This document shows, one piece after another, positions 376 through 29,387 of a stretch of 29,510 bases of DNA. Origin of the DNA: Trichoplax sp. H2 (lineage: Eukaryota); contig NOWV01000187.1 of NCBI GenBank assembly GCA_003344405.1, forward strand, positions 124,001 through 153,510, given 5' to 3'. Position 1 is the first letter of the stretch, and each line of letters begins with the position of its first letter. The translations under genes were made by a program, and so were the position numbers. The notes under the pieces are model-generated. The model saw only the letters and a program-made list of their open reading frames with translations, was not told the origin of the DNA and did no database searches.

Positions 376-572
376 CTCAAAGTTCTTATCGAATGGTCGG
401 TATTCCAACTACTAACATACTACAACCAATCATGTCGTGGTCTGGCATATCGCGCCATCAATGCGCTTTCTACTGCACAAGAAATTTAATCTGTTCCCAT
501 TTTGACTACAACTCTTCGATTATCTTTACTACAGATAATTCTCAATGCACCCTGTATAGTGTAAAGGCATAA
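376..572 (+). CDS. Unit A terminal exon: PAN/apple-like domain
   Basis: Acceptor ttctag|CT (phase 1). Encodes SGISRHQCAFYCTRNLICSHFDY...QCTLYSVKA*, the PAN core C-x3-C-x5-C-x2-F-x-Y...C-x-L. Homologous to the other terminal exons. Confidence 0.75.
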
Positions 573-4987: not shown

Positions 4988-6797
4988 GGGCTGTCAGAAT
5001 AATCAGCTAAAATATTCGTAAAACGATTGGTGACTACCGTTCACTGTAATGTACATATATCTAAATTTGACAATCACGTATTTTCTAGCACATGAAATTT
5101 TCTTATTTTACTGCTAATTAAATACCATTTAAGAATTATTCGAGATTTATAAATAGTAGCAGGACCTGCGAATTTTAAGTTACAATATATTAGATATTGA
5201 TTGATTGATATAGAAGTGTCTACTGTTGAAATGCATATTTTTCCACCAACCAGCATTTTTTTGGTGAAAGTTACCACAGAATCGTAGCTTTAGGTATTCG
5301 TGTTCGCTTCTTGACAAGAGCACACCAGTTAATAGTGAAACTGCCTCTTTTTAAAATTGTTTCTGAGACTTGTAAATGAAATTAGACTGCTAATATAGAG
5401 ATATTTTAGCGATAGTATTATTTAGATAAATATTTTCTTGAATTTACAAAATTTTAATTACTGTGCTTGATATATCTACCAGAACCTGGCACAGCTGCTG
5501 CTACTACCACCAGCACGAGTGAAAGTTCACCTTTATTTGTAATGTCTTATTATGAAAAGAAAATTTCAAGAACAACAGAGTGTACAGGTAATATTTTATT
5601 TCTGATGATTGCGGAATATGTGCATTCTTCTGGCGGCTGTAGCAAGCACATACTTCACTCCATTTAACTATAATCAAACGTGAAATAACAGTAATATATT
5701 AGTAGAGTTATGTAAACATCAAAAACATGATATAGATAATATTGTCTGAACATATTGTTACGTAAAATAAAATCGCCAAACATTACCTTCCGCACTAACA
5801 ATAAATAAACATTATGTCTACAGCCCAAAACTCTCTTCTTGCTATCGCTAGGAGACATAATTACTCATGTTTCTCTAGATCAAAAAGCATTAACCCCGAC
5901 TAGGTAATAATTTTTAGCTAAATTAAATAGATTTCAATGTCATTAATATCGATAACATTGCTAAAAATAGACTATTATTGAGACCAAAAGAAAGATAACG
6001 TTGCTATCTAGATAAAGTCAATGATGACATTGTTTTCTGTCCCGATAAATCAACTGAATACGAGCTCATGTTTACTATTCAAGTCATCTGATTTTATGTT
6101 GGCACTTGATCATATCGCAAAAGCTAAACTTTAATTTATAGATATTACGGACTTTCGGCGCGATTAAGCGAAATAATCCGGTGAATGAGTGTTTATGTTT
6201 CCTATTCAAGTTATTCGATTAATGCTAGTCCTTAATCAAACAGTAGAGGCTAGATTTTATTTTATAGATACTACCAACTTGCGGTACAATTAGAAATTTT
6301 TATAGCGATAGTTTCAAAATATCGTTATCGTCGTCCATAAAATACAGTAATTTGTTTTATAACAGTCTACTAGCTGATCCCTTACGCTATCCTCATTGAA
6401 GGGAATTAAGTTCTAACAATTCAGCGATCACGCGGATAAGTACTGTTTCGTGTTTTACAAAAATCTCTCCAAAGGAAATCTTTATTGCGTAACTTGTCTC
6501 AAATGCAACATTCTAGATACTTATTATAAAAGTGAAATTTACAGCACTCAATTGCGGCTAAACCTAGGCTCATTTTCTAACTTTGGCATTTTCTATTTTA
6601 GTTCAGGCCTTCTACAATATTGTACACTCTCCTCGCGGTAATTTGTTATCAATCAGTATAACACTTCATGGAATTACACTACATCAGTGTGCTAATGGAT
6701 GCACTCAAAATAGACTGTGCCAACTATTTGGTTATCAAAGCTGTCTTCAAAACACTATAGGCTATAACGTTTGTACTTTATTTCTTCTCTCGCTGGC
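4988..6797 (+). repeat. Copy 1 of a local segmental duplication (partner ~15881-17946)
   Basis: Collinear similarity across intron, linker exon and PAN exon, e.g. aaagttcacctttatttgtaatgtctta and tcagtgtgctaatggatgcactcaaaataga are identical in both copies. Confidence 0.9.
5483..5587 (+). CDS. Gene A2 linker exon: S/T-rich segment followed by MSYYEKK
   Basis: ctaccag|AA...ACAG|gtaata, 105 nt, phase 1-1. Encodes (E)PGTAAATTTSTSESSPLFVMSYYEKKISRTTECT, similar to gene D linker ...VLSHYYKQMDIEAEYT. Confidence 0.7.
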
Positions 6798-6801
6798 GTG
6801 A
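6602..6801 (+). CDS. Gene A2 terminal exon: PAN/apple-like domain (spliced product 129 aa, no lectin domains)
   Basis: ctattttag|TT, phase 1. Encodes HGITLHQCANGCTQNRLCQLFGY...VCTLF. Exons 36+49+105+200 = 390 nt join in one open frame. Confidence 0.75.
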
Positions 6802-6980
6802 ATAGATTGTCATAACTTACCTATTAAAGCTATGTTTCTAATATAGCAAATTACTATGTCTGGACGCATAGATTAGCTAGTTATTATTTAGCTATCAAAA
6901 CTTTCTGGCTATGTATAGTATTATTGGTCATATTAAATAAAATTCATACTGCATCTTTATGAAGGCTTGGTCGTGAAGAT

Positions 6981-7335
6981 ATATCAATGTTTTCAAAGTT
7001 GAAAGCTCCTTTAGAATCCATTAATCATAATATTTACTCCATTTATGGGTAACTACTATCAAGGTATCAAAATTGTTTACTTATTCATCAACATGCTATA
7101 GGTCCTTAATCATATACGATATTATTAGCCTTAAAATTGAATTTAGACTGGATATTTATGGAACCTTTAATGTAAAAGTATATCGATTTTTTCAAAGTTG
7201 AAAGTTCTTTTAGAATCCGTTAACTATAATATTTTCTACTCTACTCTGTTTATGGATGACTATTGTCAAGATATGAAATTATTAACCTATTCATCAATAT
7301 GCAGTAGGTCCTTAACATTAACACTTGTTTATAGC
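6981..7335 (+). repeat. Diverged direct tandem duplication, ~200-bp period (6981-~7130 and 7180-~7335)
   Basis: Both copies share ttttcaaagttgaaag(c/t)tc(c/t)tttagaatcc, tattcatcaa(c/t)atgc and taggtccttaa. Confidence 0.85.
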
Positions 7336-7449
7336 ATCTATTACGGCATAGGAACATATGGTATCAACAGAATGATCAAGTCTTTCCACAAAATATCACA
7401 TAGCTATAATACTTGTACTTTGTTTATAGTGCCTTCAGAGAGAAATTAA
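7300..7449 (+). pseudogene. Degenerate PAN-exon remnant
   Basis: TLVYSIYYGI resembles gene D TLVPIISYHGV. DNA at 7376-7425 (atcaagtctttccacaaaatatcaca...tgtactttgttt) matches the 3' half of the A2/A2' PAN exon with a 1-nt indel. The central C-x3-C-x5-C motif is missing. Confidence 0.55.
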
Positions 7450-9155
7450 ATAATTATGCATACGTGAATATTTTCTTCGAATCACTACTTTTGATCATTA
7501 TAATTCTTCTTTTACTAATGGCATGCTTATTGTAAACCTTTTAATCCTTCGGCGATCGAAACTTGCTTCAGAAAATCGTCCGCAACAACATCCAAGTTCA
7601 ACAGTTGGTTTGTAATGGGCAAACAAAGCTATGGTAGCAACTACATATCGACACTAATTTCAAACTTCTTTGCTGTAACATATCCGAGTTAAAATTTCAA
7701 GAAACCATTGCTTTTAAATATGTTCAAGATTTAGACATCAAGACTCATCAAATCGGTACGAGATTACGTCATGCTGTATTTGTTCTACAGCGATGTTAAT
7801 TTCAAATTAACACTAAGGTCTATCTTAGCAACACTATAAGATGCTTATATAAAACAGCATAGATTATAGCTTCTGAATATTTAGTGGGAGGGTGGCAGGG
7901 ATTTGTAGCATTGCTGTACGAAGATACGCTAGTAATTTAGCCGTTAGGTATTTTCATTATAGGATATAAATTAGAACGTATGTAGACGCTTATTTATAGA
8001 ATTGTTAATGTAAAAATGTTATTAGTTCACCTATCAACACTGCTAACAAAATATCAGAGCATCGGCATCATATTTGAAGCTTGTACAGCTTCAAGAAATG
8101 TTAATGATTTAGCTATCAAGAAAAAGTTTACGTTGATAATTTATTTTTTGTATATTTAAAATGATTTCTTTTGTCATATAACTAATATAGTCCATGAATA
8201 ATATACTTATATTATCATTATGTAAAAAATTTTAATTAGGTATTCTTAATACTTAAAAAGAAATATTTATTAAAGCTACAGATTAAATAATTTTGTTCAC
8301 TATTTGTTATTGCTGGATTAAAATTCTGATCATTTTTGGTCAGAATTGGAAATGCAAATAAAGGTATCACGCTACTGTTGATTTCTCAATGGACATAACC
8401 ACTCCGCTAAAAAGAATAATTAAGATATTTTAGCTACCGGTAATTAATGTGAACTCAATTACAATGTGTAAAAAAAGAAATTAGAAAGAAATTGTACAGA
8501 TAATTATTTTTTATTCTCTACTGTTACTTAATTATTGATAACACTTTTACAATAATACAGTACGATGGCGATTCATAATCTATTCAATCTTGTAATTAAA
8601 TATTCACTCATATATCAGTTTTGATGCATTTTATTATGGTTTATTATATCTGTGAATGGGTGCTGAAGATCATCTCATGGTTATAATTCTGTATTAAATA
8701 GCAAAATGCTTGTTAGATAGTCGCGTAAGGAAGTCAATGACTTCATCTTATTATAGGGAGTAAAGAGGATAATTTATAATGTTACCTATTTCATGATTAC
8801 TAAGAGATAAAATATATTCTTTGGATAAGATCACAGATAATTACTAAAGTATGTTGTTTTAGCTAAACATAAGAAAAAATCCTAGAATGGGTATTAGACA
8901 AATTTTGCTATTTTGGTAATATATTGTATTTGATTTAATTGGTAGGTGAAAGTAGTCTTGGGAAACAATCAGATTAATTATTCATGCCGTTAAAAACAAA
9001 TTATTATTGCAAGATTTTACACCTGCTCCTCCTTCATATACGAACCTAGTGTTATGCTATTTTGTTCCTGAACTTAGCTAGCTTAAAATTAAAATTAATA
9101 ACAAATGAAAATTGTTAGGTCTCATTTTATACCTATCTAAGAAATTTGTACAGTT

Positions 9156-9194
9156 ATGACATTCAAAATTGGTAGCATTTTCTTGATTGCTTTG
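9156..9194 (+). CDS. Gene B exon 1: signal peptide N-half (MTFKIGSIFLIAL)
   Basis: ATG, 13 codons, perfect phase-0 donor TTG|gtaagt. A cag just upstream (9151-9153) suggests a 5'UTR intron. Confidence 0.75.
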
Positions 9195-10956
9195 GTAAGT
9201 TTAAGACTTGACCAGTAATCTTCACTTTATCTACATTTAAATTTAGTACGAAGGATTATTTGTATTATTGTACAATTTACAGCTTGATTAATATGTTAAT
9301 ATCGTCAATCTTTTCCTAAGAAATCAGTTTATTAAGGCGTTATTACTGTAAGGCAACGCCATTTTTTGAGAAGCAACGATTTATGAACAATCCTGGTAGA
9401 AAAGGCTCTGTAGCGTACATAGAGCATATGAAAATCCTTTGCAGTCTTAGAGCAATTAACCGTCTGCGTGATCTTTAAGATAATGTCATTTTAGGGCCTG
9501 AGGATTGTTAAGCTACAAAATTAATGCTAGTTGTTGTAACATAGATACTAAGCAAAGTCATCACTTAGTAAAATGGTATCTGTGATCGTACAGCGCTTTT
9601 ACGGTCATAAGTCTTATGATATCATTTTAAGGTTATCATTTTATATCATTTATGCCAGAAAACGTTTTGTAGATGCTGCTCAACCTATATTAAATGGTGT
9701 ATGTAGCTTACAGTAATTTTTATATTCACAAGCCTTTGGGTAACATCACAGAGTTTAATGATTTTGATAGTATTTCACGCAATATTTATACTGGATATGC
9801 CGTGTATGATATTAAATCTTAGCTCTAAATAAATCTCTAGCCCTAAAAATATTGCTAAATTCATAAACGTGAAGACAGTATAAATTGCTGGAATACAGAT
9901 TATTCTTTATAATACCTGTCATGGTATGAGAGAAGGCTAAGTAGACAACATTGAGCCTAAGCATAATTGTACCTTAGTATTATAGAATATCATAGACATG
10001 TAAATCTCGTGTTAAAGATGGTTTGAGGCATTAACGATTAATAAAGTCACTGTTATATAGTTGGGTAGATAAAGATTCTGTAAGCAAAATTGAATATAGA
10101 CAATAATTGCCCTAGGTTTTCGTCTAATTGTACACTTATGAATTTAGGAATAATGCTATAAGAGTTTGATAATTGTCCATATTTCAAGTATTTATGCCAG
10201 GAAAGATTCTATACACTATTTCCAATCTATTATATGACAGTGAAGCTTACTGTCACTTATTTTTTTTTTAACCTTACGAAAGACTATAAATCTAGTGAAG
10301 GACGTTCGATATGACTTATTGCAAAAATTGTGTGATTTAAACATTTTCTCTCAACATGGTTTTGATTATGCAATTTCAGTGCATTTCAACCTTTAGAAGG
10401 CGTTTGTACTTTAGAATAAATTGATGTGCCAGATTACGAAGGGTGTAATGCCTTAATGTTTCTCGTAAAGTAGCATTAACTAAATTTTATTCGTGTTATA
10501 TTAATTAAATCTTAGTTCCAAAAGGTCTTGTCGCCCCAAAATAACATTTTACGCCATGCTATTCAAACTTAAATGCTTCAATTTTTCTAATAAAAAAATA
10601 TCAATATAAACTCTATCCATTTATCCCAATTTATTCCAATATTTGAAAGACCCTTACAACTTTCAATAACTTTTGCATAATGTCTGCAGAATACTTTTAA
10701 ATCATTTGGCATGTAGCTGATTCTAATAGCTGCGTACTTGTCGCCATTTATCTTAAATTTATACTTTCCAACTTATCGTGACTCGCATCCTGTATGAATT
10801 TGAAATATAGATAACCTTATTTGCTCTTTAGATCATCGCTTTGAATTTAATATTTATACAATTGTTTAACTAACGATTAAAATACCGTAAGACAAATAAT
10901 CTAGGCTTTAGGAGAGGGCTGATAGAAAGGGACTTTGTTTATTACACTTTAAATAG

Positions 10957-11002
10957 ATCGTATGGTTTCAAGTGAAGACGGTGCTGAATTTGCCTTTCTC
11001 GC
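10957..11002 (+). CDS. Gene B exon 2 (IVWFQVKTVLNLPFS)
   Basis: aaatag|ATC...TCGC|gtaagt, 46 nt, phase 0 to 1. Same length and phases as gene D exon 27099-27144. Completes a hydrophobic signal peptide. Confidence 0.75.
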
Positions 11003-11179
11003 GTAAGTTATATTAATGAGATACTTGCACTTTTTCTTGATTGCTTATTTACTAATAGAAAGAGATCAATAGCTTTATTTAAAATCATACGATGTATTTA
11101 TGCTTTTTGTTCAGAAGAATTATTATAGATTCTAAAGTTAGTCTTTTTCTCATTCATTTCTCGAATGTATCAAACGCAG

Positions 11180-11575
11180 TGGAAAAATTTTGGCTTCGGA
11201 CGACTTCCAATATTTCAATTTGCTATCATGTTCCTAATATGACGATGACAGCTACAAGTGCTCGTTCATATTGCCAATCATTAGGTGGTGATTTGGCTAT
11301 CTTGAATACCTCACTCAAGAATAACGATTTCGTCTTCTATTACTACACGCAATTTCAACTTGATGAAGATTTATGGATTGGATTAAGGAACAGTTATAAA
11401 ACTCCAACGCACATAATTAATCAGTGGGTTAATGGTCAGTCAGTTACGTTTTCAAATTACGCTAATGGTGAAGAAAATAGTGCTACTTACAACTGCTTTG
11501 CTATGCAACGCAACAGCACTCATAGCTGGTATAATGAGCCCTGCAACAATTTACACTATTTTGCTTGTCAACGAA
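11180..11575 (+). CDS. Gene B exon 3: C-type lectin-like domain 1
   Basis: cgcag|TG...CGAA|gtaag. Motifs ARSYCQSLGGDLA, LWIGL, W-VNG, NC, WYNEPC and YFACQ match CTLD consensus. Confidence 0.92.
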
Positions 11576-12861
11576 GTAAGAAAGTAACTGTTATTTCATA
11601 ATTTTTATTTAATGAGAGTTGGAATGGGATCGTTAGAGTATTGCTAGTGAGAATTTTTTGTGCATCTTCTACTAACTTAACAGCGTTTACTTGTACTATA
11701 GCGCAAGCTTTTTAAATTATCTTGGTAGGAAGTAAATATTCACATTTAAATAAATCGATTATGCAGCCTATAGTAGCACTCAGTTATTTCATATAAAAGT
11801 TGAAATATAAATTCAATAATGATAATTGTATGGAGGTAAGTGACATTTATTACTAAAAGAAGATTCTTGAAAGATATCGAAAATTTTATTTGTCAACTGA
11901 GAGTCTGAAAGCCAAAATTGCTTTTAGTAGATATTTGATTTAATTAATTACCCTAAAAATTTTTCATAAGTACATTAGCATTTGGTTGTTAATAGTATTT
12001 GGATGAAAGCTGCATTTAAATCGTTCAGGCATTAGTACTGCGGAGAACTAATTCTTGTAATCGAATAATCTTTTATGCTTTTAGTTTGAAGGTTCACAAA
12101 ATTTAGAATTAATCATCAGTAAGTAGTTCTATATGATTAAATTATCTACCAGTATCCTTTATAAATCTGTATACTGGTATTTAGTTAGGTATAGTATTAA
12201 CGGCAATATCAATGTTGTACTGAGTATTTGAGATATTTTGCTACTTTATATTCTTGCAGCAACTTTCAATAATGTTAACTATTAGAAGCTAATCATAACT
12301 AGATTGAATATTGAAAAGAAATTTTTTTAACTCAATTAAGTATAACAAAAAGTTATACATTATTAGCACTCAATTCTTATATTTTTAATGATAGCATGAT
12401 AATAGTTGTACAAATGTTGTTGAGATATTCTCACTGAAAAGGTTCCATTCTCGAAATGTTTTGATCATATTGGTATTAGAAAAAGAGTTTCAAAAAGGAT
12501 AGATAAATTTCAAGCTAGTTTTTTCGTGGATCTTGGCTAAATAGCTTCAATTTGCAATCTCTACATTATTATTAAATAATCCAAGAGAATAACAGCGTCT
12601 ATATAAGCAGTAATGAAATTGAGGGTACTCAGAATAATATTAATTGCCGCTTTATGATATGATGCTGTAGCTAATATAGAATAAGCGGGGAAAGCGATGA
12701 ATCTTACTATTTGTGAGCTGAATGTAGGATACTTAGTTAGCATGAAAGAATCATAGAGACCAAACTGGACGGCAGTAGCTTTTTAGTCAATATCAACATG
12801 TTTTTCTGTCTAATTATTGGCTCTGTATGTAACTAACTAATAATTACCATTTTTAACTTAG

Positions 12862-13236
12862 ATTGTAGCTATAACGTCCAATATAAAGACCGTGTCTATA
12901 CGTCGGAAATAAACTCGAAAAATTACAGTGCTTGTCGAACCTTTTGCAAGGAGGATGGAGATTTGGCTATTGTCAATAACGAGGAGCTCACTAATATTTT
13001 TCATGGCTTATATTTCCATTGGTCTATAACGGCTTGGATTGGTCTTGAAGATTTATTGGGTAAAACTGATGCTGAAAGCTATATCTGGGTAGATAATTCA
13101 ACAACCAGCGCTTACAATGATTGGGCATTTCCTACCGTACTTCTATTTCGCTGCGTTATGTTATACCCTATTTTTGGCAGATTTCAATGGTATGATACAT
13201 CATGCAGTACGATGGGATGGTGTTTATGCGAGAGAG
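12862..13236 (+). CDS. Gene B exon 4: C-type lectin-like domain 2
   Basis: aacttag|AT...AGAG|gttaat, 375 nt, phase 1-1. Motifs CRTFCKEDGDLA, AWIGL, WVD, RCV, WYDTSC and LCE. Confidence 0.9.
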
Positions 13237-13415
13237 GTTAATATGATTGTATGGCAGTAATTACTTGTAGAAGATTAGCTACTCTAGTTGATGTTTGAAA
13301 ACATTTTTGTATAGTTAATAAAACGTCATTTCCCCTTAAATCTTCGGATAAGTAATGCACGACTAAATTTAACTCCTTGTAATAATTACATTTATTTTCT
13401 TATCTTCTCAATAAG

Positions 13416-13520
13416 CTGCACAAAATTATTCCATTACTGTTCAAGAACCATCTCTGCCACCATCCATAGAATTCTACTTGTATAATACCATAGCAATCAT
13501 TCAAGGCAGTGCAAATTCAG
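13416..13520 (+). CDS. Gene B exon 5: linker (AAQNYSITVQEPSLPPSIEFYLYNTIAIIQGSANS)
   Basis: Pyrimidine tract then aataag|CT...TCAG|gtaaat. 105 nt, phase 1-1, open, same position as the other linker exons. Confidence 0.75.
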
Positions 13521-14565
13521 GTAAATTAGAAAGTAAACAAAAATTAAAAGAAATCAAATTCAATAGCAGAAGAGAACTAGTTCAATATATCAGAGATCCT
13601 ATTAACCAATTAAATCACAAATAGTAGTTATATCAAAATTTGAATTATATATAAGGTTTGGCGCTTAGTAGTTAATAAATGCTTCTTCAATTTCTTATCA
13701 ATTTATAAAAATTTTCTGCTGATTGGAGCAAAGTTTTACGGTAGTATAGAACTGTAACATTTAAATTATCCTGTCAAATTTGATTCACATTGGTAGCATT
13801 CTAGAAAGATTTATGACTGTAAATTAGTAAATTTATTAACAAATACCAATCACAAGTATTTCAACTTTTAGATTACGGTAGATTTGACATTCAAATTAAA
13901 AGTGAGATAACTATGCAATAATTTATTATCTTTCTCTGCTACTTGTAAAGTTTCGGCAGATTACGCATAAATTCTATTTTGTGACAATTTATAAGTAAAT
14001 ATTTTGTAAATAAACTTTCCCATTCAATTAGATGTACTACAGAGAGACTAGTATACAGAATGTAAAATTACGTATTTTATTTGTTACTTATATTGCAAAT
14101 CATCACTTTGTTCAAATTTTAGATTGAAATGCGTTTTAAGATGATATTAACAAATGCTGTGCTTTATATCTCAGCTATTTAAGGAATTTTATTGAGAGTT
14201 CATGTATATTGTAGTAACAGCTTACAAGTAATGATGGTAACAGTCAGCTACCTAATTTAATTATATTTATTATGTATAGAATAGGAATTGTAGGAGTAGG
14301 AACTAGTGGCTTTAATAATGATTTGTTAAATCAAATATCGTAACGCAACAGATTGAAAAGTCTTAATAGGCTTTTAAAATGACTTTGTTTGCATGAAGAC
14401 TAATGTTACAACGATTAATATTTTGACTGATGGATATTATCCTGATCTCTACAGCTAATTCATGCCGTTCCGAATGGTTTTATAAATCGTAACTCATTAA
14501 CAATATTATCTTGATATGCAATCATTAATTTATTTTACATTGGTTACTTTTATAAAATTATATAG

Positions 14566-14759
14566 TGCAAGTTTCCTACCAGTTTGTATCAACGATGGAA
14601 ATTAGTTCTATACCTTTGAAATCGTATAATGGTATTTCTCGTAGTCAGTGCGCTATCCGTTGCGCCATGGCTACTCTATGCAGTCAGTTTGGCTATACTA
14701 ATTCCCAAAACGAAAACTATGCGAATAATTGCCATTTATACGTAAATTCCTCTAATTGA
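14566..14759 (+). CDS. Gene B exon 6: PAN/apple-like domain (full product 384 aa: SP-CTLD-CTLD-linker-PAN)
   Basis: tatag|TG, phase 1. Encodes SYNGISRSQCAIRCAMATLCSQFGY...NCHLY. The six exons sum to 1155 nt in one open frame. Confidence 0.85.
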
Positions 14760-15880
14760 ATGTCATCATTGCACAAGCTTCAAGTAAAGACATCAAAGTA
14801 AATGGAGAAAACTGAGTGTGTCATGGTGAATAGTATGATAATAATTATTACTTACAATTTATAATGTCAATTATAATTCAAATAAGAAATTGATAAATTA
14901 ACTCATTTCCGTTAGATTACCATGTTTTATATAGGTTCCAAAATAATCAGTCTTTAAACTCTTTCTTAGCTTAAGCAATGTAATCGATATACTGTACTTG
15001 ATGATTAGTCAATCAGCTACAGAATTATCCAATTTATTGCCAATTTTACAATGTCATTATAAATGTCGTCAATTTTGATTTAATGGTACGCTTGGAAACT
15101 ATATTAGCAATGACATGTTTGATATATATTTTATGTGAACTTATAAAATGACCTAAAAATAGTTATATTAATCAATTTATTCAATTCAAATAGTAATTTA
15201 GACTGTAATATTTGATAAATATACTCAAATGAAACGGCATTGGATATCACGAATCCGTAGTTAAGATGCGATTAGGCAACGTCATTATGTTCTGTTGCAA
15301 AAATTTACTTTCAAAGATTTGAAGCTACTGCATGATCAAAATAGATTTAAATAGAACAAGACTTTAATGAAATGCTAGTATATATTTTCTTTATATATTA
15401 CTCCACCAATTCTTAGTAACTGGCAATCATATTAATATACAAAACGCAATTAGCAATCAATCTAATAAAAATCTGAATATTATTCCAATTAAATGATTTA
15501 TCATTTTTACGACCTTGTATCGATATGATATCATAGTTTTGATGAATACTATTATCGCATTTGGCAATATTGTCACATAAGGTAATTATGGATTGTTATG
15601 AACATATATTAGTGAAATTATAGAATAGGATTCCTTTTGGAGATTACAACCTCATGACCTGTGCGAGTAGATATCAAATAAGGAAAATAAAATACTGCGT
15701 GAACGTTTAATTTCAACAATAAAACTATCCTTCGTGTTCCTTAAAACTTTTGGTCCTGAAACAATTATATAAATAATTAGTGTGTGTAGTGCATATTGGT
15801 AAAAAAATAAAGATCTTTCACACTGTACTTATACCTTTATTTTTTAATGCCAGACCAGACTGAACCATGTATATCTGAAT

Positions 15881-17946
15881 TGGCTATCTTACTGAATTGC
15901 TAAAATAGTAATAAAACAGTTACTAACTACCATTCACCATAGTTTACAAATATCTAAATTGAACAATCTCATATTTTCCAATAGATAAAATTCTCTTTTC
16001 TTACTTATTATACTGCAAATTGCAAAATCATTTGAGAATTATTCGAGATTTATGATGTAGTAGAATCTATGAATTTTCAATTTATACAATGTTAATCTGG
16101 TGATATTAATTGATTGATGCAGCGGTGTTTAGTATCGAAATGTATAATCTTCCAACTTCCAGTATTTTTGATGTAAGTTCTACAGAATCGTAAACGTGAA
16201 TTTTTGTATTCACTTCTAGACAAGATCACTCCAGTTAATAGTGCAATTTCCTTTCGGAAAATTGTTTCTGAGAATTTTAAATGAAGCTGGACAAAGATAA
16301 TATAAAGATATTTTAGTAATAGTAAAATTTGGATAAACATTTTCTTGAATTTACAATATTTAAGTTACTCTGTGATTGATCTACCAATACCTGGTGTAAC
16401 GGCCGCTATTACTGCAGCTACGAGTAAAAGTTCACCTTTATTTGTAATGTCTTACTATGAAAAGAAAATCTCGAGAACAACAGGTTATATAGGATGTAGT
16501 GAAGTGGGTTCATTTATATCGGCTAACTCTGCAGGCGGATCTGCGGTAGCCATGATACTTTAATAGTAGTGAAGAGTTTGGAAATAGATAGAAGGACAGT
16601 CGCAGTGTGTGCTTAGAAAAGCCTTTATTTAAAAGGTGATATGCATAGGACAAACTTGATTAATATGCGAGAGTTAGTATCAAGAAGTGAAGTAAAGCGA
16701 AATGATCTATATTCTTAGAACGATCGAAAATTTATACCAATGCATAGTAATGTGATTACAATACTAAATTATACTCTATGTATTACTCTTACGACCTAGT
16801 TTTATCGTAAATAATTACTTGTAATACTTAAAAATATTTGATGTTAATTGTGTATTCAACTGTACTAAGATGGGTCGTTAATGGATTTCCATCAACGACT
16901 GTGTGAGTTTAGGCTATTTAATATAGGAATTATAAAGTTGTAATTAAGATGGCGAATGTTACACGAACAGTGCACCTCCGCAGGTAACAGTTAATTTATA
17001 GACGATTAATTTAATAATTATAATTAATATATTATAGTAACCATATACAAATCAGTATATAATAAGCTATTAATTTTGTTAGTTGATTAATTTGAAGATT
17101 GCACCTATTGGCTTAAGAAAGAATATATGTCCGTTCTTTATTAACTAAACTGAATTGCTGTATTTGATCTATCAGTAAGGCACACTATTAAATAAAAAGT
17201 TCACATAAAACTATCGTACTCATTCTACGTTTAGCTCATTTACAGTCTTAGAACTACGCAGAGTCACTTTAGACGTAAGATAGCTAAGAGATAGTACTTC
17301 AGTTTGGTCTCTGTGCCATAAGTTTGATTGTGACAATTACTGCATTCTATTGCATATTGCCAACATTATAAAAGTACGGTGCACGTTACATGTTATATAT
17401 CTAAGATACTACACAGGTAATATTCTATTTCTAGCGATTATGCAGTATATACAATCTTCTGAAGGCTATAATAAGTACTATTTCACTCCATTAAACTATA
17501 ATCCCAAATTTAATACCTGCAAATATTACCCCAAGTTAAGTAAATATCAATAACATAATACAAATAACATTGTCTGAGCATATTGTTATTTAAAGTAAAA
17601 TTATCAAATATCACCTACCCTCCTCGCTAGAAAGTAAACAATATGGCTGTAGCCCGAAATGCTCTTTTAGTTATCGCTGAAAGATGTATTAATTATTCCA
17701 TGTCTTTCTCTAGATCAAGCAATATTAACCTCAATTTAGTACTAACTTCTAGCTAAGCTACATAGATTTCATTGTCATGATTTCGATAACATTGCTAGAG
17801 TAGATTATTATGGACTTCATGGTATTGCATTACGTCAGTGTGCTAATGGATGCACTCAAAATAGATGGTGCCAACAATTTAGCTATCAAGGCTTTCTTCA
17901 AAACACCATAGATTCTAACGTTTGTACTTTATTTCTTCTCCCACTG
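15881..17946 (+). pseudogene. A2': inactivated duplicate of the 3' half of gene A2
   Basis: Linker exon (from ~16388) has its acceptor AG changed to AA (16386-16387) and a 919-bp insertion at its donor. A deletion equivalent to about 5982-6663 removes the PAN acceptor and first codons (junction ~17812). Confidence 0.85.
16495..17413 (-). mobile_element. Putative solo LTR, 919 bp, probably minus orientation
   Basis: Absent from the paralogous site near 5587. Termini TGTAGT...ACTACA form a 6-bp inverted repeat. Flanks TAGGA/CAGGT look like a decayed 5-bp target duplication. Minus-strand TATAAA (~16731-16736) precedes AATAAA (~16624-16629). No long ORF. Confidence 0.65.
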
Positions 17947-18771
17947 ACTGCCACAACTACCCTTGCGATACAAGAAAACAACACAGTACTTATAATAAAC
18001 TTCACGTTAATCCGCAGAACTACTTCCCTAGCCTACGGTATAGTAGTTGGAATTCTTGCGAAGTACATTATCGATAGCTTTGTTTGCCAAAAAGGTATAC
18101 AGGACCACATCAAAAAAACTATCCATACTATTCCCCGCGATTGTCGTATATAATTAGTCGTTCTATCGATATCAGTTATACTTTTATTTTCTCGATGTTG
18201 GTTAGAATTAGATAATACTGCAGTGAATAGTGAAAATCGTAAAGTTAAAGATATATTTAACTACATTACCGGTAACTGGAAAAGACTCTACAGAAGAGAA
18301 AAACGATTTAAATTACAGACCTTGATTACGTGTTCTTTGATTGCCTTCGTATTAATCCGAAAATAGAGTAATAAAGTTTCATCCGCTACTACCATAGTAT
18401 GCTAAGAAGTCCCTGCAAAAGAGATAAGGTTGAGCTGCAAGTTAGTAGCTCTTATACTTTATATTAGTAAACAGGTAAAAAATATCAATTTAAGGAAAGA
18501 TAATCAAAGAATGAGTTGAACCATAAATTCTTTAATTGTCTACATCCAATCAGTAAAGTTATGAAAATATTGATCAAAAGATATCATTAGTACAGTGCGG
18601 TAATAGATTAAAAGGCAATATGCTTACTGTACAATGATCATATGCATAAGTTAGCAAATTTTGAAGTACAAGCAGTCGTAGCGGTCGCTAGTAAAATCCT
18701 TCTACGAATTAAGGCTTTGGAAAAATAAATAAAATTTAGTTGTGAACTATTTCCTATTTCTTATTTACTAG

Positions 18772-19158
18772 ATTGTCCAGAATATTAATTCCAATATGAA
18801 AATCGTTACTTTGCTGTTGATATAAGTATAAATAACTTTGATAAGGCCCAATCTCAATGTAAAGCGACTTATTCTAGTGGTGATTTAGCTATGATCAAAA
18901 ATCTGGAATTAAGTACTGCTCTAACTGGTTATTTATTTTAGCTACCAACCAATGCTTGGATTGGCTTGCGGGATTTACATAACCTCGATAGTAAAGATTC
19001 CTTTGTTTGGTTTGATGGAAAAACTGCCAATACCTTTACCAATTGGGGAAATTTCTCTTCGAATTCTGATCAAAGTTGTGTCTGGATAAATTGTAGCTTG
19101 GAAAACAAATGGACCAGTACTAAATACAATTATGCTGCTTATTCGCTATGCGAATTAG
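18772..19158 (+). pseudogene. Unit C: disrupted CTLD2 exon
   Basis: Aligns with CTLD2 of B and D (QYENRYF, QC...GDLAM, AWIGLRD, SLCE). In-frame TAA at 18786-18788 and TAG at 18939-18941. The conserved Cys after W is Tyr (WTSTKY) and the donor reads G|gcattt. Confidence 0.88.
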
Positions 19159-19482
19159 GCATTTTCTTTACTATCAATGATACCGTGCTATCCCTACTTT
19201 CAATTAAATCTAACATCTATGTTATTAATTTACATGTTAAGCATGTTTAACAGTAAATCAGAAATCTGTGCTATTAGTTTTTAATGATAACGTTTAAATA
19301 CTTTTTTCAAAGTTAATCAATTTATATATAGGCTTTCTGTTTGGAAGCAATGTAACGATTTTATTTTAAAATCAATAGTTGCTAATTTATGCAGCTCCAT
19401 GTTATAACAGCCATCATAATTAAAAAAACTGTTGAATTTTAATTTGGATGGACAACGCTGCTGTAAATTTGCCTACTACTAG

Positions 19483-19637
19483 GTAGCAAAGCAATAAATG
19501 CAATTGAGCCTGCGACTACGCAGGCATCACCATCTTCAACTATTTTTCCGGTCACTTCCACACCATCATCGTCCTCAACATTACATGTGGTCATTCTTGT
19601 CTATACCAACAGCTTTCGAACACCAATGCTATTTCAG
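19483..19637 (+). pseudogene. Unit C: frameshifted S/T/P-rich linker exon
   Basis: actag|GT...TCAG|gtaaat is 155 nt, not a multiple of 3. The entry frame reads EPATTQASPSSTIFPVTSTPSSSST and the exit frame reads LYQQLSNTNAIS, consistent with a 1-nt deletion. Confidence 0.7.
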
Positions 19638-19807
19638 GTAAATTCTATGGAGAAAACGGTGGCAAGGTAGCGGAGGGATGCACAATGTATTTCACAATTT
19701 TTATATATAATAGTTCATGTAACATAGATGAAAGATGCTATTTTCGTCCAAGTAATCATTAAGAAATTAGAGCAAACAGAGTAATTTTAGTTCGTTTTTT
19801 AATCTAG

Positions 19808-20049
19808 TAATTCAAGTAATGTATACAACCATGATTCCACCAGCCGAAGAGTTAGTGCTACCGATCGCAAGTTTTACAGGTATATCCGTCCATCAGTGTG
19901 CTCATATTTGTACAGGCCGCCAGGTTTGTCATCGGTTTAGTTTTAAAGGAACGCTAGAGAATTCGACAACTGACAACATCAGCACATGTATCTTGTATAC
20001 CAGTGTGACAAAATCCGATCGCGAAAATTCCAAAGTTGTAGAAAATTAA
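19808..20049 (+). CDS. Unit C terminal exon: intact PAN/apple-like domain within a pseudogenised unit
   Basis: aatctag|TA, phase 1. Encodes SFTGISVHQCAHICTGRQVCHRFSF...TCILY, open to TAA at 20047-20049. Confidence 0.65.
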
Positions 20050-20931
20050 AACTTTATTAGATCTAATACAAAGACTAGCTACATACGGCTCTACTCTAGC
20101 CGAATATAACTATTGAAAGGCTTCTAGAAAGAACAATCACATAATCTAATGACTCCAGCTTCTATACTTTCCGTAGCCTTCGCTTCTACAATCGGCATAG
20201 CAAAATTCTACCATATTTTACTAATATTCAGCTTATTATTAGTTACACTATTTTACAGCGAACCATTATTAATCCAATATGGTAGTGATTACAGTATTTT
20301 CGTAGACATTATTCCTACCACTCAAAGTACAATGAACTAAGCCTATCTTAATATATGATTTGCAATTCTATTTCTGCCCCTAACCTTATTAGTCGCTAAA
20401 TATCTTACTGTATATAGTTATCTGTACTCTAGCATAGAGCCTATCCTTACAGTATATAATTACGGGCTACTAAATATATATCATAAGGCAAATATAGAAA
20501 AGATACTGCCGTACATCATACAAAATATGGCTAATAGTTTACAACCACCATACTAAGTTACTTTACAACTGGTACCAGCCATGATGTCTCCGCTTAAGAT
20601 TTAAAACTAAATATTCTATGACTGTAATCACCTTCAAGTAATATCTTCATACAAAAAACAGAAAAAAAAAGAATTGAATTTCAATACCGAGTTAAATGAC
20701 TTAAATTACTTTTGAACTAAATAAAAATATTTGCAAGATTACTTGATGAAATACCTTCACATTGTTGAATGAGATAAAAATTACTTTTGATTTTATATCT
20801 TAGAATAAAAGTTACTTCCTGCTTTAATACATTGGATAGTAGCTGATAATATAGTGTTTCTAAGTTTCTAGACTACAAATACTATAAATAATTAATGTAT
20901 GTTACCAAACCGTATACTAGGCTGTCAAGTA

Positions 20932-22687
20932 GTAACTTTACGTTCCTCCGGAAGTATTTATCTGCACTAATTTTCGGGTGATGAGTGTATCTGTACTACT
21001 TTATATGTTGGTATAAATGACAGTATACTGCTCATAATATGATCGATTCCCGATAATTTAGATTAATGCAGTTAAAATTTAAATTAACAAAGTTTTTAAT
21101 AAAGTTCGAATTTCATGATTTGATTCAGGTGAGCTTGTAATAATTTTTTCATCGTGATGATATCGGATTTGTCAATACTTAGAGTTATAATGCAAATAAA
21201 AGTCAGAAAGGGTAGGTCTAATAGTTGTCACGAGCTAGGAATAGCCCTAACTTGCAACAAGGATTGAGATAGTGATTTCTACGCTTTACTACTGTAATTT
21301 GGAATTCCAGACAATTGATATTCCAACGCAGTTAGGGTTTAGTACTAAGCCATTTCCTCTAAACTTAGGAATTGTACTTTGAACCTTAACAACCTTGGAG
21401 GTGATAGATATAATCCAGTTTAGCTGGTTGGCAATTACTATTTTAGTCTATGTAATCCTAAATTAAGGATATTAACTGTTAAACGCTAAAATTACAATTA
21501 AGGAGACCGTAGAACATTTCTGAGATATAAACATATATAGAATGTAAATAGAAATAAAGTATACGTCACGAAGATTACTTTCGTGACATAGTATATTGTA
21601 ATTTTAATACCCTCATTGCTAACTTCATTTTGAGACAAGGTATATAACAAACTGCTGTCGTATTCAAATTCTTATGATTAATCTTACTTTAGTTGCTAAA
21701 TTGAATTATGTTAGTACTTTCTTTATTTTATTACGCTGAGTTAACCTGTAAGGCCTGTTAAGCAGTATCGCAACATTTACGTTCCTCCAGAGAAAATTAT
21801 TAGTACTAATTTCTAAATTTACTAATGATGAGTTTATCTATACTAGTTTACGTTTCTGTATAGATAGCCGTATTCTTTAGAGAATGTTATTGTGACGGAG
21901 TATAGACTCCATCAATTAATTGTGGCATTAGCCTTGGTAATTAGTAATTAAGATTTTATCAATTGTTAATAACATTTATTTATTAGCTATGGGATAATTA
22001 TAACATTATTAGTAGTCTAATTACACTTGTTGTAGACTCTGTGCAGAGCAATGTGTTTACAGAAGTAATAAGTAATGTTCACGCCATAGTAATCTCTGTT
22101 ACTTTGTGCTGAGCCTTTGGTTGTTAATTGGCTCTTAATTAGTTCATAACTCATTAGTGTTGTTTACGCCGTTTGTCATACTAAACCATATAGGCAAACG
22201 GCTATACAAAAGCTGTATGTTTTAGAGTTGCTTACCTAAGCTGTGCACCGGGTGCAACCTAGCTAGGGTATATAAAGCCCAGCTCTCTCACTAGTAGTTC
22301 AGTTGTCGGTTGACCGTGGGGTCAGAGTAGTCTTGGATGGCAAGACTACCTTCGCTCAATAAAACTATTTCAAAGCCCTAAGACTAGTCTACGCTTAGCC
22401 CGTTGGGGGTATACTTGGCTGTTGTAGCCCTAGCATTCATACAAACTTCGAAGGCCCAGGTCTCCCTGTCGTGGGCTGACTACGACAGTTATCTATTTTC
22501 CATGAATTGATGTAGTTAAAATGTAAATTAAAAAAAATTTTTAATAAAGTTTGAATTTCATAATTTATTTTTGATAATTATTATTACTAGGACAAGTTTG
22601 TAAATATTGTAGCATCATGACAATATCGGATTTATCAATACTTAGAGATAAACAACATATAAATATCGGAAAGGGTGGATTTGATAG
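20932..22687 (+). repeat. Diverged ~300-bp intergenic direct duplication (20932-21224 vs 21772-21890 plus 22488-22687)
   Basis: Shared blocks tttacgttcctcc, tttttaataaagtt(c/t)gaatttcat and atatcggattt(g/a)tcaatacttagag. The second copy is split by the solo LTR. Confidence 0.85.
21891..22487 (+). mobile_element. Solo LTR of an LTR retrotransposon, 597 bp
   Basis: TGT...ACA termini. Perfect 5-bp target-site duplication GTTAT (21886-21890 and 22488-22492). TATATAAA at 22269-22276, then AATAAA at 22358-22363. The neighbouring duplicate copy lacks it. Confidence 0.88.
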
Positions 22688-27337: not shown

Positions 27338-27739
27338 TGGACAAATCTTGGATTCGAAGCTATCCAACTTATCCAGTCTGCCATCATATTCCTGATATTC
27401 AGATGAAATTTTCTCAAGCTCGCACATATTGTCAGTCATACGGTGGCGATTTGGCTATATTCCAGTCTGGGAACATGAGCATTTATTTCAATTTTAAGAC
27501 TATATTCTATAGCAATTTTGGCTTGCAAAATGATACCTGGATAGGACTGACTGATCTTCGCATATCAGAATCGGAAAATCAAGCTCAGTGGATTAATGGC
27601 CAGATAGCAAACACATCTAATTTACAACCAGGTCAACCTGATGGCGCAACAGAAGATTGCTATGCGATTAATGGAACTGGAAATCAAGAATGGTTTGATG
27701 ATTACTGCAATAAATTGAAATATTTTGTATGTGAGAAAG
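27338..27739 (+). CDS. Gene D exon 3: C-type lectin domain 1 with QPD motif
   Basis: aaatag|TG...AAAG|gtacgc. Motifs ARTYCQSYGGDLA, TWIGL, GQPDG, EDC, WFDDYC and YFVCE. Confidence 0.92.
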
Positions 27740-27915: not shown

Positions 27916-28305
27916 TTTGTAATGATTCTCACATTCAGTACGAAAATCGACACTTTTTTGTCTATGAATTCTTGGGTAACTATGATAGTAGTCGACAAAT
28001 TTGCCAGAATTACACCGAAGGAGGAGATTTTGCAATGCTAGATAATGCTGAGATAAATAATGTCTTCAATCATTATTTATATTTATGGTCCTCTTCGATG
28101 TGGATGGGACTGAGAGATATTAATAACGAAGATAATATAAATAAATTTGTTTGGGTTGATGGTACTTTGGCCGATACATATACAAATTGGGGTGCCTATA
28201 TGCCATTATCAGATCGAGATTGTGGTCTTATGGCAAGAATTGGTCAGGATTATAAATGGCTAAACCTTGCATGTAATATCTTTTTGGCATCACTTTGTGA
28301 GTTCG
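27916..28305 (+). CDS. Gene D exon 4: C-type lectin-like domain 2
   Basis: aattag|TT...TTCG|gtaagt, 390 nt, phase 1-1. Motifs RQICQ...GGDFAM, MWMGLRD, WVDG, YTNW, DCG, WLNLAC and LCE. Confidence 0.92.
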
Positions 28306-28405: not shown

Positions 28406-28507
28406 AATCAGCTTCTACACCAGTCTCACCTACTTCTGCTCCTTCTGCTATTACTACAGTGCTTTCTCACTACTATAAACAAATGGATATTGAAGCTGAA
28501 TATACAG
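28406..28507 (+). CDS. Gene D exon 5: S/T/P-rich linker (ESASTPVSPTSAPSAITTVLSHYYKQMDIEAEYT)
   Basis: tttcattag|AA...ACAG|gtgcga, 102 nt, phase 1-1. Donor chosen by homology to the A2 linker; an alternative in-frame donor lies 15 nt downstream. Confidence 0.75.
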
Positions 28508-29196: not shown

Positions 29197-29387
29197 CTAC
29201 TGGTACTTTTGGACTCCTTGCTTCATCTAATACTTCCACACTGGTGCCAATAATTTCTTACCACGGGGTTTCACGCCTTCAGTGCGCTTTTTATTGCATG
29301 AAAAATACTGTGTGTATTCAGTTTACCTACAATTATACCGTAGGTAATACTTCTAATGAAAATATTTGCACCCACTATTCAAACTAA
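29197..29387 (+). CDS. Gene D terminal exon: PAN/apple-like domain
   Basis: acatag|CT, phase 1. Encodes SYHGVSRLQCAFYCMKNTVCIQFTY...ICTHYSN*. Confidence 0.85.

What the first reader, a model, noticed from the sequence alone, without database searches (positions are those of the whole stretch)
5483..6801. PAN domain appears circularly permuted: its last strand (YYEK) sits in the preceding exon
Known: PAN modules such as plasminogen (…VVLFEKK) and the HGF N-domain (…FDLYEN) end with an aromatic-E-K/N strand well after the fourth core Cys, and that strand pairs with the first strand of the sheet. Seen: here the stop comes 5-8 residues after the last Cys in four of five intact exons (CTLYSVKA*, CTLFLLSLA*, CHLYVNSSN*, CTHYSN*), so the strand is absent. 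Every linker exon instead carries a matching motif 10-12 residues before its end: MSYYEKK (5542-5562), FYLYNT (13472-13489), LYQQ (unit C) and HYYKQ (28468-28482). Inference: this segment completes the fold from the N-terminal side, a circular permutation that follows an exon boundary.
Basis: partly seen in the sequence, partly recalled or inferred. Interest (0 to 1): 0.8.

Follow-up and report, generated by a model that had tools for sequence, protein, structure and literature searches.

The report
Short PAN module with upstream aromatic strand
A cluster of placozoan lectin genes ends in a shortened PAN-type binding module that lacks its usual last strand, and a conserved aromatic segment in the preceding exon may stand in for it, but this could not be shown.

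Summary
The window matches named Trichoplax sp. H2 proteins. It holds a tandem family of secreted lectin genes: signal peptide, two C-type lectin exons, a Ser/Thr-rich linker exon and a terminal PAN-like exon.

The observation largely holds. Four of five intact PAN exons stop 5-8 residues after the last Cys. Spliced contigs show that in unit B this exon is the last one, with the stop inside the transcript. A hydrophobic/aromatic cluster lies 11.5-15 residues before the exon end in all five paralog types.

Two corrections:
- The focal unit (5483-6801) is a gene fragment without lectin exons. In another strain's contigs it carries 8 nonsynonymous of 9 changes, one in an invariant Cys, so it is probably a pseudogene.
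- The unit C motif (LYQQ) lies in a frame that clashes with that exon's entry phase.

The interpretation stays open. Two papers place the last strand of the PAN/apple sheet between the first strand and the third strand, so an N-terminal replacement is sterically natural. All three structure predictions were too poor to test it, because there are too few homologues.

Most likely the module starts in the linker exon. I put strict circular permutation at about 0.22. Interest is modest.

The parts
376..572 (+). Unit A1, terminal PAN-like exon (stop 570-572). It is the end of the gene for P0153 (Trichoplax sp. H2) and its T. adhaerens relative P0016.
   Evidence: Acceptor AG, phase 1. tblastn P0153 488-554, 97%. 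Pfam PAN_1 E 2.4e-05, 24.5 bits against a cut-off of 21.4.
5483..5587 (+). It is part of a 3' gene fragment.
   Evidence: AG/GT sites and length. Motif translation. No lectin exon between 573 and 5482.
6602..6801 (+). Unit A2 PAN-like exon (stop 6799-6801). Probably pseudogenic.
   Evidence: Contig X5 record 6 covers 6601-7063 unspliced. The acceptor is joined to donors at 6180 and 6248, and those paths meet a stop 3 codons after the linker exon. 8 of 9 strain differences are nonsynonymous, including an invariant Cys to Tyr.
9156..9194 (+). Unit B exon 1 (start codon and hydrophobic N-terminus).
   Evidence: tblastn P0151 1-13. Joint 9194|10957 GT..AG.
10957..11002 (+). Unit B exon 2.
   Evidence: Joints 9194|10957 and 11002|11180, GT..AG, in X4, X5 or X6.
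11180..11575 (+). Unit B first C-type lectin exon.
   Evidence: Pfam Lectin_C E 2.9e-15. Spliced contigs.
12862..13236 (+). Unit B second C-type lectin exon.
   Evidence: Joints 11575|12862 and 13236|13416. tblastn P0151 217-342.
13416..13520 (+). Unit B linker exon (105 nt, phase 1-1), with the motif at 13472-13489 (P0151 residues 361-366).
   Evidence: Joints on both sides in X4 and X5, GT..AG. Lengths and sites.
14566..14972 (+). Unit B terminal exon: PAN-like coding part 14566-14759 (stop 14757-14759), then at least 213 nt of 3' UTR.
   Evidence: X4 record 3 and X5 record 9 cover 14564-14972 without a joint. X9 covers 14617-15072. PAN_1 E 2.7e-04.
16388..16483 (+). Unit A3 linker relic, a decayed copy of A2 (acceptor AG changed to AA).
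   Evidence: blastn 5006-5578 against 15899-16483, 75%. Splice sites.
17814..17946 (+). Unit A3 relic of the 3' part of the PAN exon. Its 5' part and acceptor are deleted and its stop is lost.
   Evidence: blastn 6663-6795 against 17814-17946, 87%, abutting intron-derived 17413-17814. The ORF runs on to 18153.
18783..19154 (+). Unit C, single C-type lectin exon (approximate limits).
   Evidence: tblastn with P0151, P0153 and P0002.
19483..19637 (+). Unit C linker exon, 155 nt, so its entry and exit phases clash.
   Evidence: An X9 contig over 19509-20047 has one more base than the window.
19808..20049 (+). Unit C PAN-like exon, with a 19-residue tail after the last Cys.
   Evidence: PAN_1 E 9.8e-04, profile positions 21-59 of 76.
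27338..27739 (+). Unit D first C-type lectin exon (402 nt, phase 1-1).
   Evidence: Read from the sequence. tblastn.
27916..28305 (+). Unit D second C-type lectin exon (390 nt, phase 1-1).
   Evidence: Lectin_C E 1.2e-10. P0002 is 100% identical.
28406..28507 (+). Unit D linker exon (102 nt, phase 1-1), with the motif at 28468-28482.
   Evidence: The junction between the second lectin exon and the linker exon appears spliced in the T. adhaerens model P0002.
29197..29387 (+). Unit D terminal PAN-like exon (stop 29385-29387).
   Evidence: PAN_1 E 5.2e-04.

Best explanation
These are secreted placozoan lectins. Each has a signal peptide, two C-type lectin domains, a Ser/Thr-rich (mucin-like) stalk and a short C-terminal PAN/apple-type module.

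The PAN-like exon encodes a weak first strand, then the core: strand 2, helix, strand 3 and strand 4, with the two core disulfides. It stops right after strand 4. The canonical last strand and the outer disulfide are absent.

The folded module most likely begins in the preceding exon, not at the exon boundary. A conserved hydrophobic/aromatic stretch lies 10-13 residues before the end of the linker exon. I infer that it pairs as a hairpin with the first strand of the PAN exon. Together they would fill the two sheet positions beside strand 3 that canonical PAN domains fill with their first and last strands.

Shown: gene structure, the terminal stop, the PAN-like core, and the conserved position of the stretch. 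Inferred: that the stretch is a strand of the module. Undetermined: which of the two slots it occupies.
For: Gene model: spliced contigs for unit B and named proteins that end at the same stops.

PAN identity:
- Invariant G, Q-C-A, C, C, F and C columns across the 5 exons.
- PAN_1 E-values from 2.4e-05 to 0.035 in 6 of 6 ORFs.
- The best sequence match among solved structures is Toxoplasma MIC4 (E 0.012), followed by HGF N domains.
- The exon-only model (pLDDT 57.2) has strand 16-21, helix 25-34, strand 40-44 and strand 54-58.
- Against 48161 solved chains, its ranks 1, 2 and 4 are PAN/apple (Z 5.1, 5.0, 4.8), as are at least 18 of the 50 rows listed.

Missing end:
- PAN_1 matches stop at profile position 45-59 of 76.
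- The model aligns to factor XI apple 4 residues 272-336 of a 90-residue chain, to HGF 40-106 of the 28-126 fragment, and to the Eimeria PAN module 18-64 of 86 residues.
- The last strand is interior, next to the first strand (PMC8763576 and PMC9024836, passages).

Upstream stretch:
- It is present in all 5 paralog types at a fixed distance, while the rest of the linker is not alignable.
- Its start lies 44 residues before the first core Cys in unit B. That is more than in factor XI or HGF, about 25-29 residues by my own count on recalled sequences, and more than the PAN exon itself needs. So it is an extra element.
- The ESM Atlas model of P0151 aligns 67-74 residues to PAN-type models in 9 of 10 rows, and 6 of 10 ranges begin at or before the motif (a lead only).
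Against: - AlphaFold2 of whole P0151 leaves residues 343-377 as coil at pLDDT 21-31. The whole model is poor, with mean pLDDT 43.
- The exon-only model leaves the exon's first 15 residues unstructured.
- Structure matches have only middling Z (5 or lower), and Foldseek found nothing at E <= 0.001.
- 4 of 10 Atlas rows begin after the motif.
- Whole-protein PAN_1 scores (15.4-19.2 bits) are below Pfam's cut-off of 21.4.
- Only five paralog types and two species were available.
- Tyr, Phe, Ile, Asn and Lys codons are common in this 30% G+C DNA.
Confidence: 0.55

Rival explanations
1. Strict circular permutation. The upstream stretch occupies exactly the interior slot of the missing last strand, between strand 3 and the first strand. 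It descends from a last strand, for example of a lost upstream PAN copy.
For: The sheet order puts the last strand beside the first, and their chain ends meet. A strand followed by a 12-14-residue loop and then the first strand can therefore reproduce that geometry. The PAN exon's own N-terminus aligns to PAN_1 profile positions 4-7, which leaves the upstream stretch as an extra element. A2/A3 carry a literal aromatic-aromatic-E-K-K.
Against: No model places the stretch. Only 1 of 5 paralog types has the E-K ending. The others share just an aromatic pair. The Atlas alignments that include linker residues are sequential, not permuted. Unit C keeps both an upstream stretch and a 19-residue tail ending in a hydrophobic pair followed by E-N, so replacement is not clean there. 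Descent from a last strand has no support at all.
Confidence: 0.22
2. The PAN-like exon is a self-sufficient minimal core of three strands and a helix. The upstream stretch has another role, such as a stalk-to-domain junction, a strand for self-association, or a processing or sorting signal.
For: The exon-only model gives just that core. Matches to Pfam PAN_4 run to position 48-50 of its 51 in A1, B and D, so a curated short PAN family ends at the same place. The best structural match is a short apicomplexan apple domain, SML-2.
Against: PAN_4 scores (14-18.5 bits) are below its cut-off of 27. Pfam limits are not fold limits. The exon keeps a conserved aromatic-hydrophobic first-strand pattern that would have no partner. 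The fixed spacing of the upstream stretch argues for a structural tie. I could not check whether SML-2 or MIC4 have a last strand, because the papers are not held.
Confidence: 0.28
3. For the focal coordinates only: unit A2 is a decaying partial duplicate and makes no linker-PAN protein.
For: There are no lectin or signal exons within 4.9 kb upstream. A2 and the clearly decayed A3 are a segmental duplication of just this 3' part. The listed joints lead from the PAN acceptor to donors at 6180 and 6248, and those paths meet a stop 3 codons after the linker exon. In another strain's contigs, 8 of 9 PAN-exon differences are nonsynonymous, including loss of an invariant Cys, against 2 of 5 in unit B. 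The accession numbers of the A1 and B proteins are consecutive.
Against: In the window both exons are open, with intact AG and GT sites. Contigs cover both exons. Four joints were not shown. The divergent contigs could come from a paralog. A2 could be an alternative 3' end of the A1 gene.
Confidence: 0.65
4. A downstream exon or a minor isoform supplies the last strand.
For: Contigs drop rare variants (tool note). Another contig lies at 15035-16123.
Against: Contigs of three runs read through the stop of unit B without a joint. Gene models of two species end there. All the stops fall in the same short window after the Cys.
Confidence: 0.04

Closest known systems
Long PAN/apple domains: plasminogen N-terminal domain, HGF N domain, factor XI and prekallikrein apple domains (Pfam PAN_1, PF00024)
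   Same: The same core: the strand before the helix, a helix tied by two disulfides (C-x3-C ... C ... C) to strands 3 and 4, and an aromatic residue after the third Cys. These are the top structural and sequence matches.
   Different: The module ends 5-8 residues after the fourth core Cys. The last 15-25 residues of these domains (short strand F, last strand G/b5, outer Cys) have no counterpart. It has an extra conserved aromatic stretch about 15 residues further upstream than their first strand. Whole-protein PAN_1 scores are below the cut-off.
Short apicomplexan apple domains: Sarcocystis SML-2 (2yil/2yip), Toxoplasma MIC4 (4a5v, 2ll4)
   Same: The best structural match (Z 5.1-5.3, rmsd 2.2-2.5 A, 47-49 aligned) and the best sequence match (E 0.012). 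The size is similar. Their titles call them galactose-binding lectins.
   Different: Identity is 17-23%. I could not establish what follows their fourth strand, because the papers are not held. They are tandem domains of parasite adhesins, not lectin-stalk-PAN proteins.
Pfam PAN_4 (PF14295), a 51-position short PAN family
   Same: Matches run to the end of the profile (position 48-50 of 51) in A1, B and D, so the C-terminal limit coincides.
   Different: Scores of 14-18.5 bits are below the cut-off of 27. Only profile positions 17-50 match.
Proteins that combine C-type lectin and PAN domains in other animals
   Same: An ESM Atlas cluster of 142 members, mostly molluscs, carries PAN_1 (67%) and Lectin_C (63%) and is the first structure row for P0151 343-440. 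P0014 is a multi-lectin protein with one full PAN domain.
   Different: Those PAN parts were not examined in detail. P0014's PAN continues about 25 residues past the fourth Cys.
Natural circular permutations of small domains (swaposin versus saposin, concanavalin A; recalled, not searched)
   Same: It would be the same kind of event if the strict reading holds.
   Different: Nothing here shows the permuted connectivity. No paper in the library pairs 'PAN domain' with 'circular permutation' (0 papers). The only paper with 'apple domain' and 'circularly permuted' is about E. coli fimbriae.

Membership tests
PAN/apple superfamily (Pfam PAN_1 PF00024) | Four core cysteines, spaced C-x3-C-x5-C then C, that tie the helix to strands 3 and 4 | tested here: met
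   C28, C32, C38 and C55 are invariant in 5 of 5 exons, with Q27, A29 and F41.
PAN/apple superfamily (Pfam PAN_1 PF00024) | Score at or above Pfam's gathering cut-off (21.4 bits) | tested here: inconclusive
   Exon ORFs: A1 24.5, B 21.1, D 20.3, C 19.4, A2 14.8, A3 14.4 bits. Whole proteins: 15.4, 19.2 and 18.7 bits.
PAN/apple superfamily (Pfam PAN_1 PF00024) | Core fold: strand, helix, two-strand hairpin | tested here: inconclusive
   The exon-only model has those elements but pLDDT 57.2. PAN/apple chains take ranks 1, 2 and 4 of 48161, but Z is only 4.8-5.1. Foldseek found nothing at E <= 0.001.
PAN/apple superfamily (Pfam PAN_1 PF00024) | Five-stranded sheet b1-b5-b3-b4-b2, with the last strand coming after the fourth core Cys | tested here: not met
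   The chain ends 5-8 residues after that Cys in 4 of 5 exons. PAN_1 profile positions 60-76 are unmatched in 6 of 6 ORFs. Topology is from PMC9024836 and PMC8763576.
Apple subtype (factor XI, prekallikrein) | Outer disulfide C1-C6 joining the two chain ends | tested here: not met
   B, A1 and D have no Cys in the linker tail, none before the first core Cys and none after the fourth.
Circularly permuted domain | The N-terminal segment occupies the spatial slot of the missing C-terminal strand | tested here: inconclusive
   In the whole-protein model the segment is coil at pLDDT 21-31, and the model's mean pLDDT is 43. No coordinates and no non-sequential aligner were available.
Circularly permuted domain | The relocated segment is homologous to the ancestral terminal segment | not testable with these tools
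   The segment is 6-9 residues long. Only A2/A3 resemble the aromatic-E-K ending. No further relatives could be fetched.
C-type lectin domain (Pfam Lectin_C PF00059) | Score above the cut-off of 22.6 bits | tested here: met
   57.3 and 42.5 bits for window exons. 71-77 bits with two stretches each in P0151, P0153 and P0016.

The most novel reading that the evidence does not exclude
Placozoan lectin-stalk-PAN proteins carry a natural circular permutation of the PAN/apple fold. The interior last strand has moved to the N-terminal side, is encoded by the preceding phase 1-1 exon, and pairs with the first strand as a hairpin. This would be the first permuted member of the fold and an example of permutation along an exon boundary.
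Probability: 0.22. Interest if true: 0.55.

Novelty: new variant of a known kind. Interest (0 to 1): 0.35.

Why it matters
PAN/apple modules are widespread binding domains. They occur in coagulation factors, growth factors, parasite adhesins and plant receptors. Their last strand sits inside the sheet, so a family that lacks it must solve a folding problem.

If the upstream strand fills that place, the family would show how a small disulfide-rich module can be rewired. It would also show that the unit that folds need not be the unit that the exon delimits. That matters for domain annotation, because these proteins are filed only as C-type lectins.

If not, the family defines a minimal PAN core.

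Either way the practical gain is modest: better gene models and domain limits for a placozoan lectin cluster that may act in glycan recognition.

Tried and rejected
- Two-chain fold (complex prediction) of the B linker exon against the B PAN exon: score 0.02, no verdict, controls not run, and my alignments were not used. It is not evidence either way.
- Whole-protein AlphaFold2 of P0151: too poor to use for fold search.
- More homologues:
  - The search for homologous proteins with D's second lectin exon, lengths 'longer': none.
  - P0151 residues 336-440: only itself among 12 candidates.
  - A profile of the five PAN exons against the 152 proteins fetched: only P0016 and P0151, plus a weak P0014.
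  - A metagenome scan with the PAN alignment could not be made, because no stretch was conserved enough.
  - No genome is held for the window.
- A first alignment that included the linker exons was discarded, because MAFFT laid them on the PAN columns. A second, with single-lectin proteins, scattered fragments.
- Sequencing runs: no RNA holder is listed on record apart from X9. X4-X6 are treated as RNA only because their contigs are spliced. The direct 5587|6602 joint of unit A2 is not among the 15 joints shown, and 4 more were not shown. Units A1 and D were outside the stretch laid.
- Permutation-aware alignment (CE-CP, US-align) was not possible, because no model coordinates are given out.
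- Papers on SML-2 and MIC4 structures are not held, so I could not check whether short apple domains keep a last strand.
- Rfam and tRNA scans of the window found nothing.
- Earlier notes of this scan: none on this genome or sequence.
- The supplements of PMC6321704, which list Trichoplax sp. H2 lectin gene models, are closed and may name these genes.
Full report
WHAT THE WINDOW IS

The DNA is about 30% G+C and has short exons with GT..AG introns. The exons of unit B are 98-100% identical to P0151, a 440-residue protein named 'Macrophage mannose receptor 1 [Trichoplax sp. H2]'. The first PAN-like exon belongs to its neighbour P0153 (same contig, next accession number) and to the T. adhaerens protein P0016.

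The window holds a tandem family, all on the + strand:
- A1: only its last exon lies in the window.
- A2: a linker exon and a PAN exon.
- B: complete.
- A3: a relic.
- C: one lectin exon, a linker exon and a PAN exon.
- D: two lectin exons, a linker exon and a PAN exon.

Lectin_C is well above the Pfam cut-off. P0016 shows the full plan: hydrophobic N-terminus, two lectin domains, about 170 residues of Ser/Thr-rich stalk, then the part at issue.

THE OBSERVATION

Four of five intact PAN-like exons stop 5-8 residues after the last Cys. Unit C stops after 19.

The linker exons of A2, B and D are 105, 105 and 102 nt, phase 1-1, with AG and GT sites. Unit C is different. Its linker exon is 155 nt. 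Its acceptor phase and its Ser/Thr-rich part fit one frame, and the donor phase fits another. The first frame gives a VYTN-type motif at the usual place. An X9 contig over 19509-20047 holds one base more than the window, so this may be a 1-nt difference.

TRANSCRIPTS

I laid contigs of four runs on 5001-25000. X4 and X5 hold contigs that join all six exons of unit B at GT..AG:
- 9194|10957
- 11002|11180
- 11575|12862
- 13236|13416
- 13520|14566

From 14564 the contigs run unspliced to 14972, which is 213 nt beyond the stop. X9, the one run on record as RNA, covers 14617-15072.

So the PAN exon is the last exon of unit B in the assembled contigs, and no downstream exon supplies a strand there. 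Rare isoforms would not show in contigs. The gene models of two species end at the same stops.

THE FOCAL UNIT A2 IS PROBABLY NOT A WORKING GENE

- tblastn finds no lectin exon between 573 and 5482.
- A2 and A3 are a segmental duplication of only the 3' part, 74-87% identical.
- A3 is clearly dead. Its acceptor AG has become AA, the 5' part of its PAN exon is deleted, and its stop is lost.
- For A2, the joints shown lead from the PAN acceptor (6602) to donors at 6180 (GT) and 6248 (GC). Joints at 5025>5474 and 5589>5885 are not at splice sites.
- Along these paths the frame from the linker exon meets a stop after 3 codons. Only the hypothetical 5587|6602 splice gives an open 100-codon frame.
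- In the other strain's contigs, 8 of 9 differences in the A2 PAN exon are nonsynonymous. One turns an invariant core Cys into Tyr. In the B PAN exon 2 of 5 are nonsynonymous, and both are conservative.
- Caveats: 4 joints were not shown, and the contigs might come from a paralog.

IS IT A PAN MODULE, AND IS THE STRAND MISSING?

Evidence that it is PAN-like:
- The five exons share invariant G, Q-C-A, C, C, F and C columns.
- PAN_1 matches all six ORFs (E 2.4e-05 to 0.035). Only A1 passes the cut-off, and the whole proteins do not.
- A profile of the exons finds only PAN-type solved structures: MIC4 at E 0.012, and HGF N domains at E 0.6-3.8.
- AlphaFold2 of the B exon alone (5 rows) gives pLDDT 57.2, with strand 16-21, helix 25-34, strand 40-44 and strand 54-58. 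The first 15 residues are coil.
- Foldseek finds nothing at E <= 0.001.
- VIA-align against 48161 chains puts SML-2 (Z 5.1), factor XI/kallikrein apple domains (Z 5.0) and plasma kallikrein (Z 4.8) at ranks 1, 2 and 4. At least 18 of the 50 rows listed are PAN, apple, MANEC or WSC entries (second look). Z near 5 is only middling, so I call the fold PAN-like, not proven.

Evidence that the C-terminal end is missing:
- PAN_1 matches end at profile position 45-59 of 76.
- The model aligns to 272-336 of the 90-residue factor XI apple 4 chain, to 40-106 of the HGF 28-126 fragment, and to 18-64 of the 86-residue Eimeria PAN module.
- Against PAN_4 (51 positions) the matches do reach position 48-50. 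A curated short family therefore ends at the same place, though scores are below its cut-off.

Passages in PMC8763576 give the apple sheet as C-E-D-G-A, plus a small B-F sheet, with strands lettered in sequence order. Passages in PMC9024836 give the PAN/apple topology as b1-b5-b3-b4-b2. The last strand is thus interior, between strand 3 and the first strand. Without it the first strand has no partner.

The PAN exons keep a first-strand-like aromatic-hydrophobic pattern near their start, and PAN_1 aligns its positions 4-7 there. The upstream stretch starts 44 residues before the first core Cys in unit B, so it is an extra element. It is separated from the exon's first strand by 12-14 residues. 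A hairpin of the two could fill both empty positions.

The stretch is retained. A hydrophobic/aromatic cluster lies 11.5-15 residues from the exon end in all five paralog types. Only 38 of 20000 shuffles are as tight. The rest of the linker cannot be aligned.

WHY IT REMAINS OPEN

- The whole-protein model is poor, with mean pLDDT 43 and the linker as coil at 21-31.
- No deeper alignment could be built.
- The ESM Atlas holds its own model of P0151 (pLDDT 0.61). For residues 343-440:
  - several of the ten structure rows belong to PAN-family clusters or aligned parts (PAN_1, MANEC, PAN_2, PAN_4);
  - TM by query is 0.50-0.56;
  - 9 of 10 rows align 67-74 residues, more than the exon's 63-64;
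  - 6 of 10 ranges begin at or before the motif, which is P0151 361-366.
  This suggests that part of the linker exon belongs to the globule. The register is sequential, and the tool marks it as a lead only.
- Only A2/A3 have the E-K-K ending that recalls canonical last strands.
- Unit C keeps a 19-residue tail as well as an upstream stretch.

VERDICT

The most likely reading (0.55) is a short PAN variant whose fold starts in the linker exon. Strict circular permutation is a sub-case at about 0.22. A self-sufficient three-strand core with an unrelated upstream element is at about 0.28.

The library searches found no report of a permuted PAN or apple domain. The finding is a new variant of a known kind, of modest interest until a structure or a confident model exists.

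Noticed in passing
window 9156-11180: The named model P0151 disagrees with the spliced contigs at its 5' end. The contigs join 9194|10957 and 11002|11180. P0151 includes 9582-9695 and reads through 11116-11179. About 55 of its first 85 residues are therefore probably not in the main transcript.
   Followed up: partly
window 17949-18058: A stretch of about 110 nt has very high contig depth in all four runs (up to about 6400 in X4), with different loose ends on both sides. It starts where homology between A3 and A2 ends. There is no Rfam or tRNA match. It is probably a dispersed repeat or an abundant small RNA inserted at the end of the A3 relic.
   Followed up: partly
window 16286-18521: One X4 contig has three joints with CT..AC ends (16286>16391, 16621>17618, 18411>18521). 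These would be GT..AG introns of a minus-strand transcript running across the A3 relic and towards unit C.
   Followed up: no
window 20342-22450: Contig depth is high in all runs (up to 420), with many variant contigs, indels and loose ends, and there is no ORF over 70 codons. This looks like an expressed repeat family.
   Followed up: no
window 19483-19637: The unit C linker exon is 155 nt, so its entry and exit phases clash. An RNA-library contig of another strain has one extra base somewhere in 19509-20047. This could be a real frameshift or an assembly error.
   Followed up: partly
window 28508-28530 and P0002: The T. adhaerens model P0002 (TRIADDRAFT_62581) is a fragment of the unit D ortholog. 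It reads on into the intron after the linker exon, so its last 7-8 residues are intronic.
   Followed up: partly
window 5026-5473 and 5590-5884: Contigs of X4 and X5 skip these two stretches at non-splice ends (AT..AT, AA..AA). They are probably insertion/deletion differences between strains, or a paralog.
   Followed up: no
window 15035-16123: A contig of 1085 nt (X4) or 768 nt (X5) lies between unit B and the A3 relic and overlaps the sequence duplicated from upstream of A2. It could be a long 3' UTR of B or a separate transcript.
   Followed up: no
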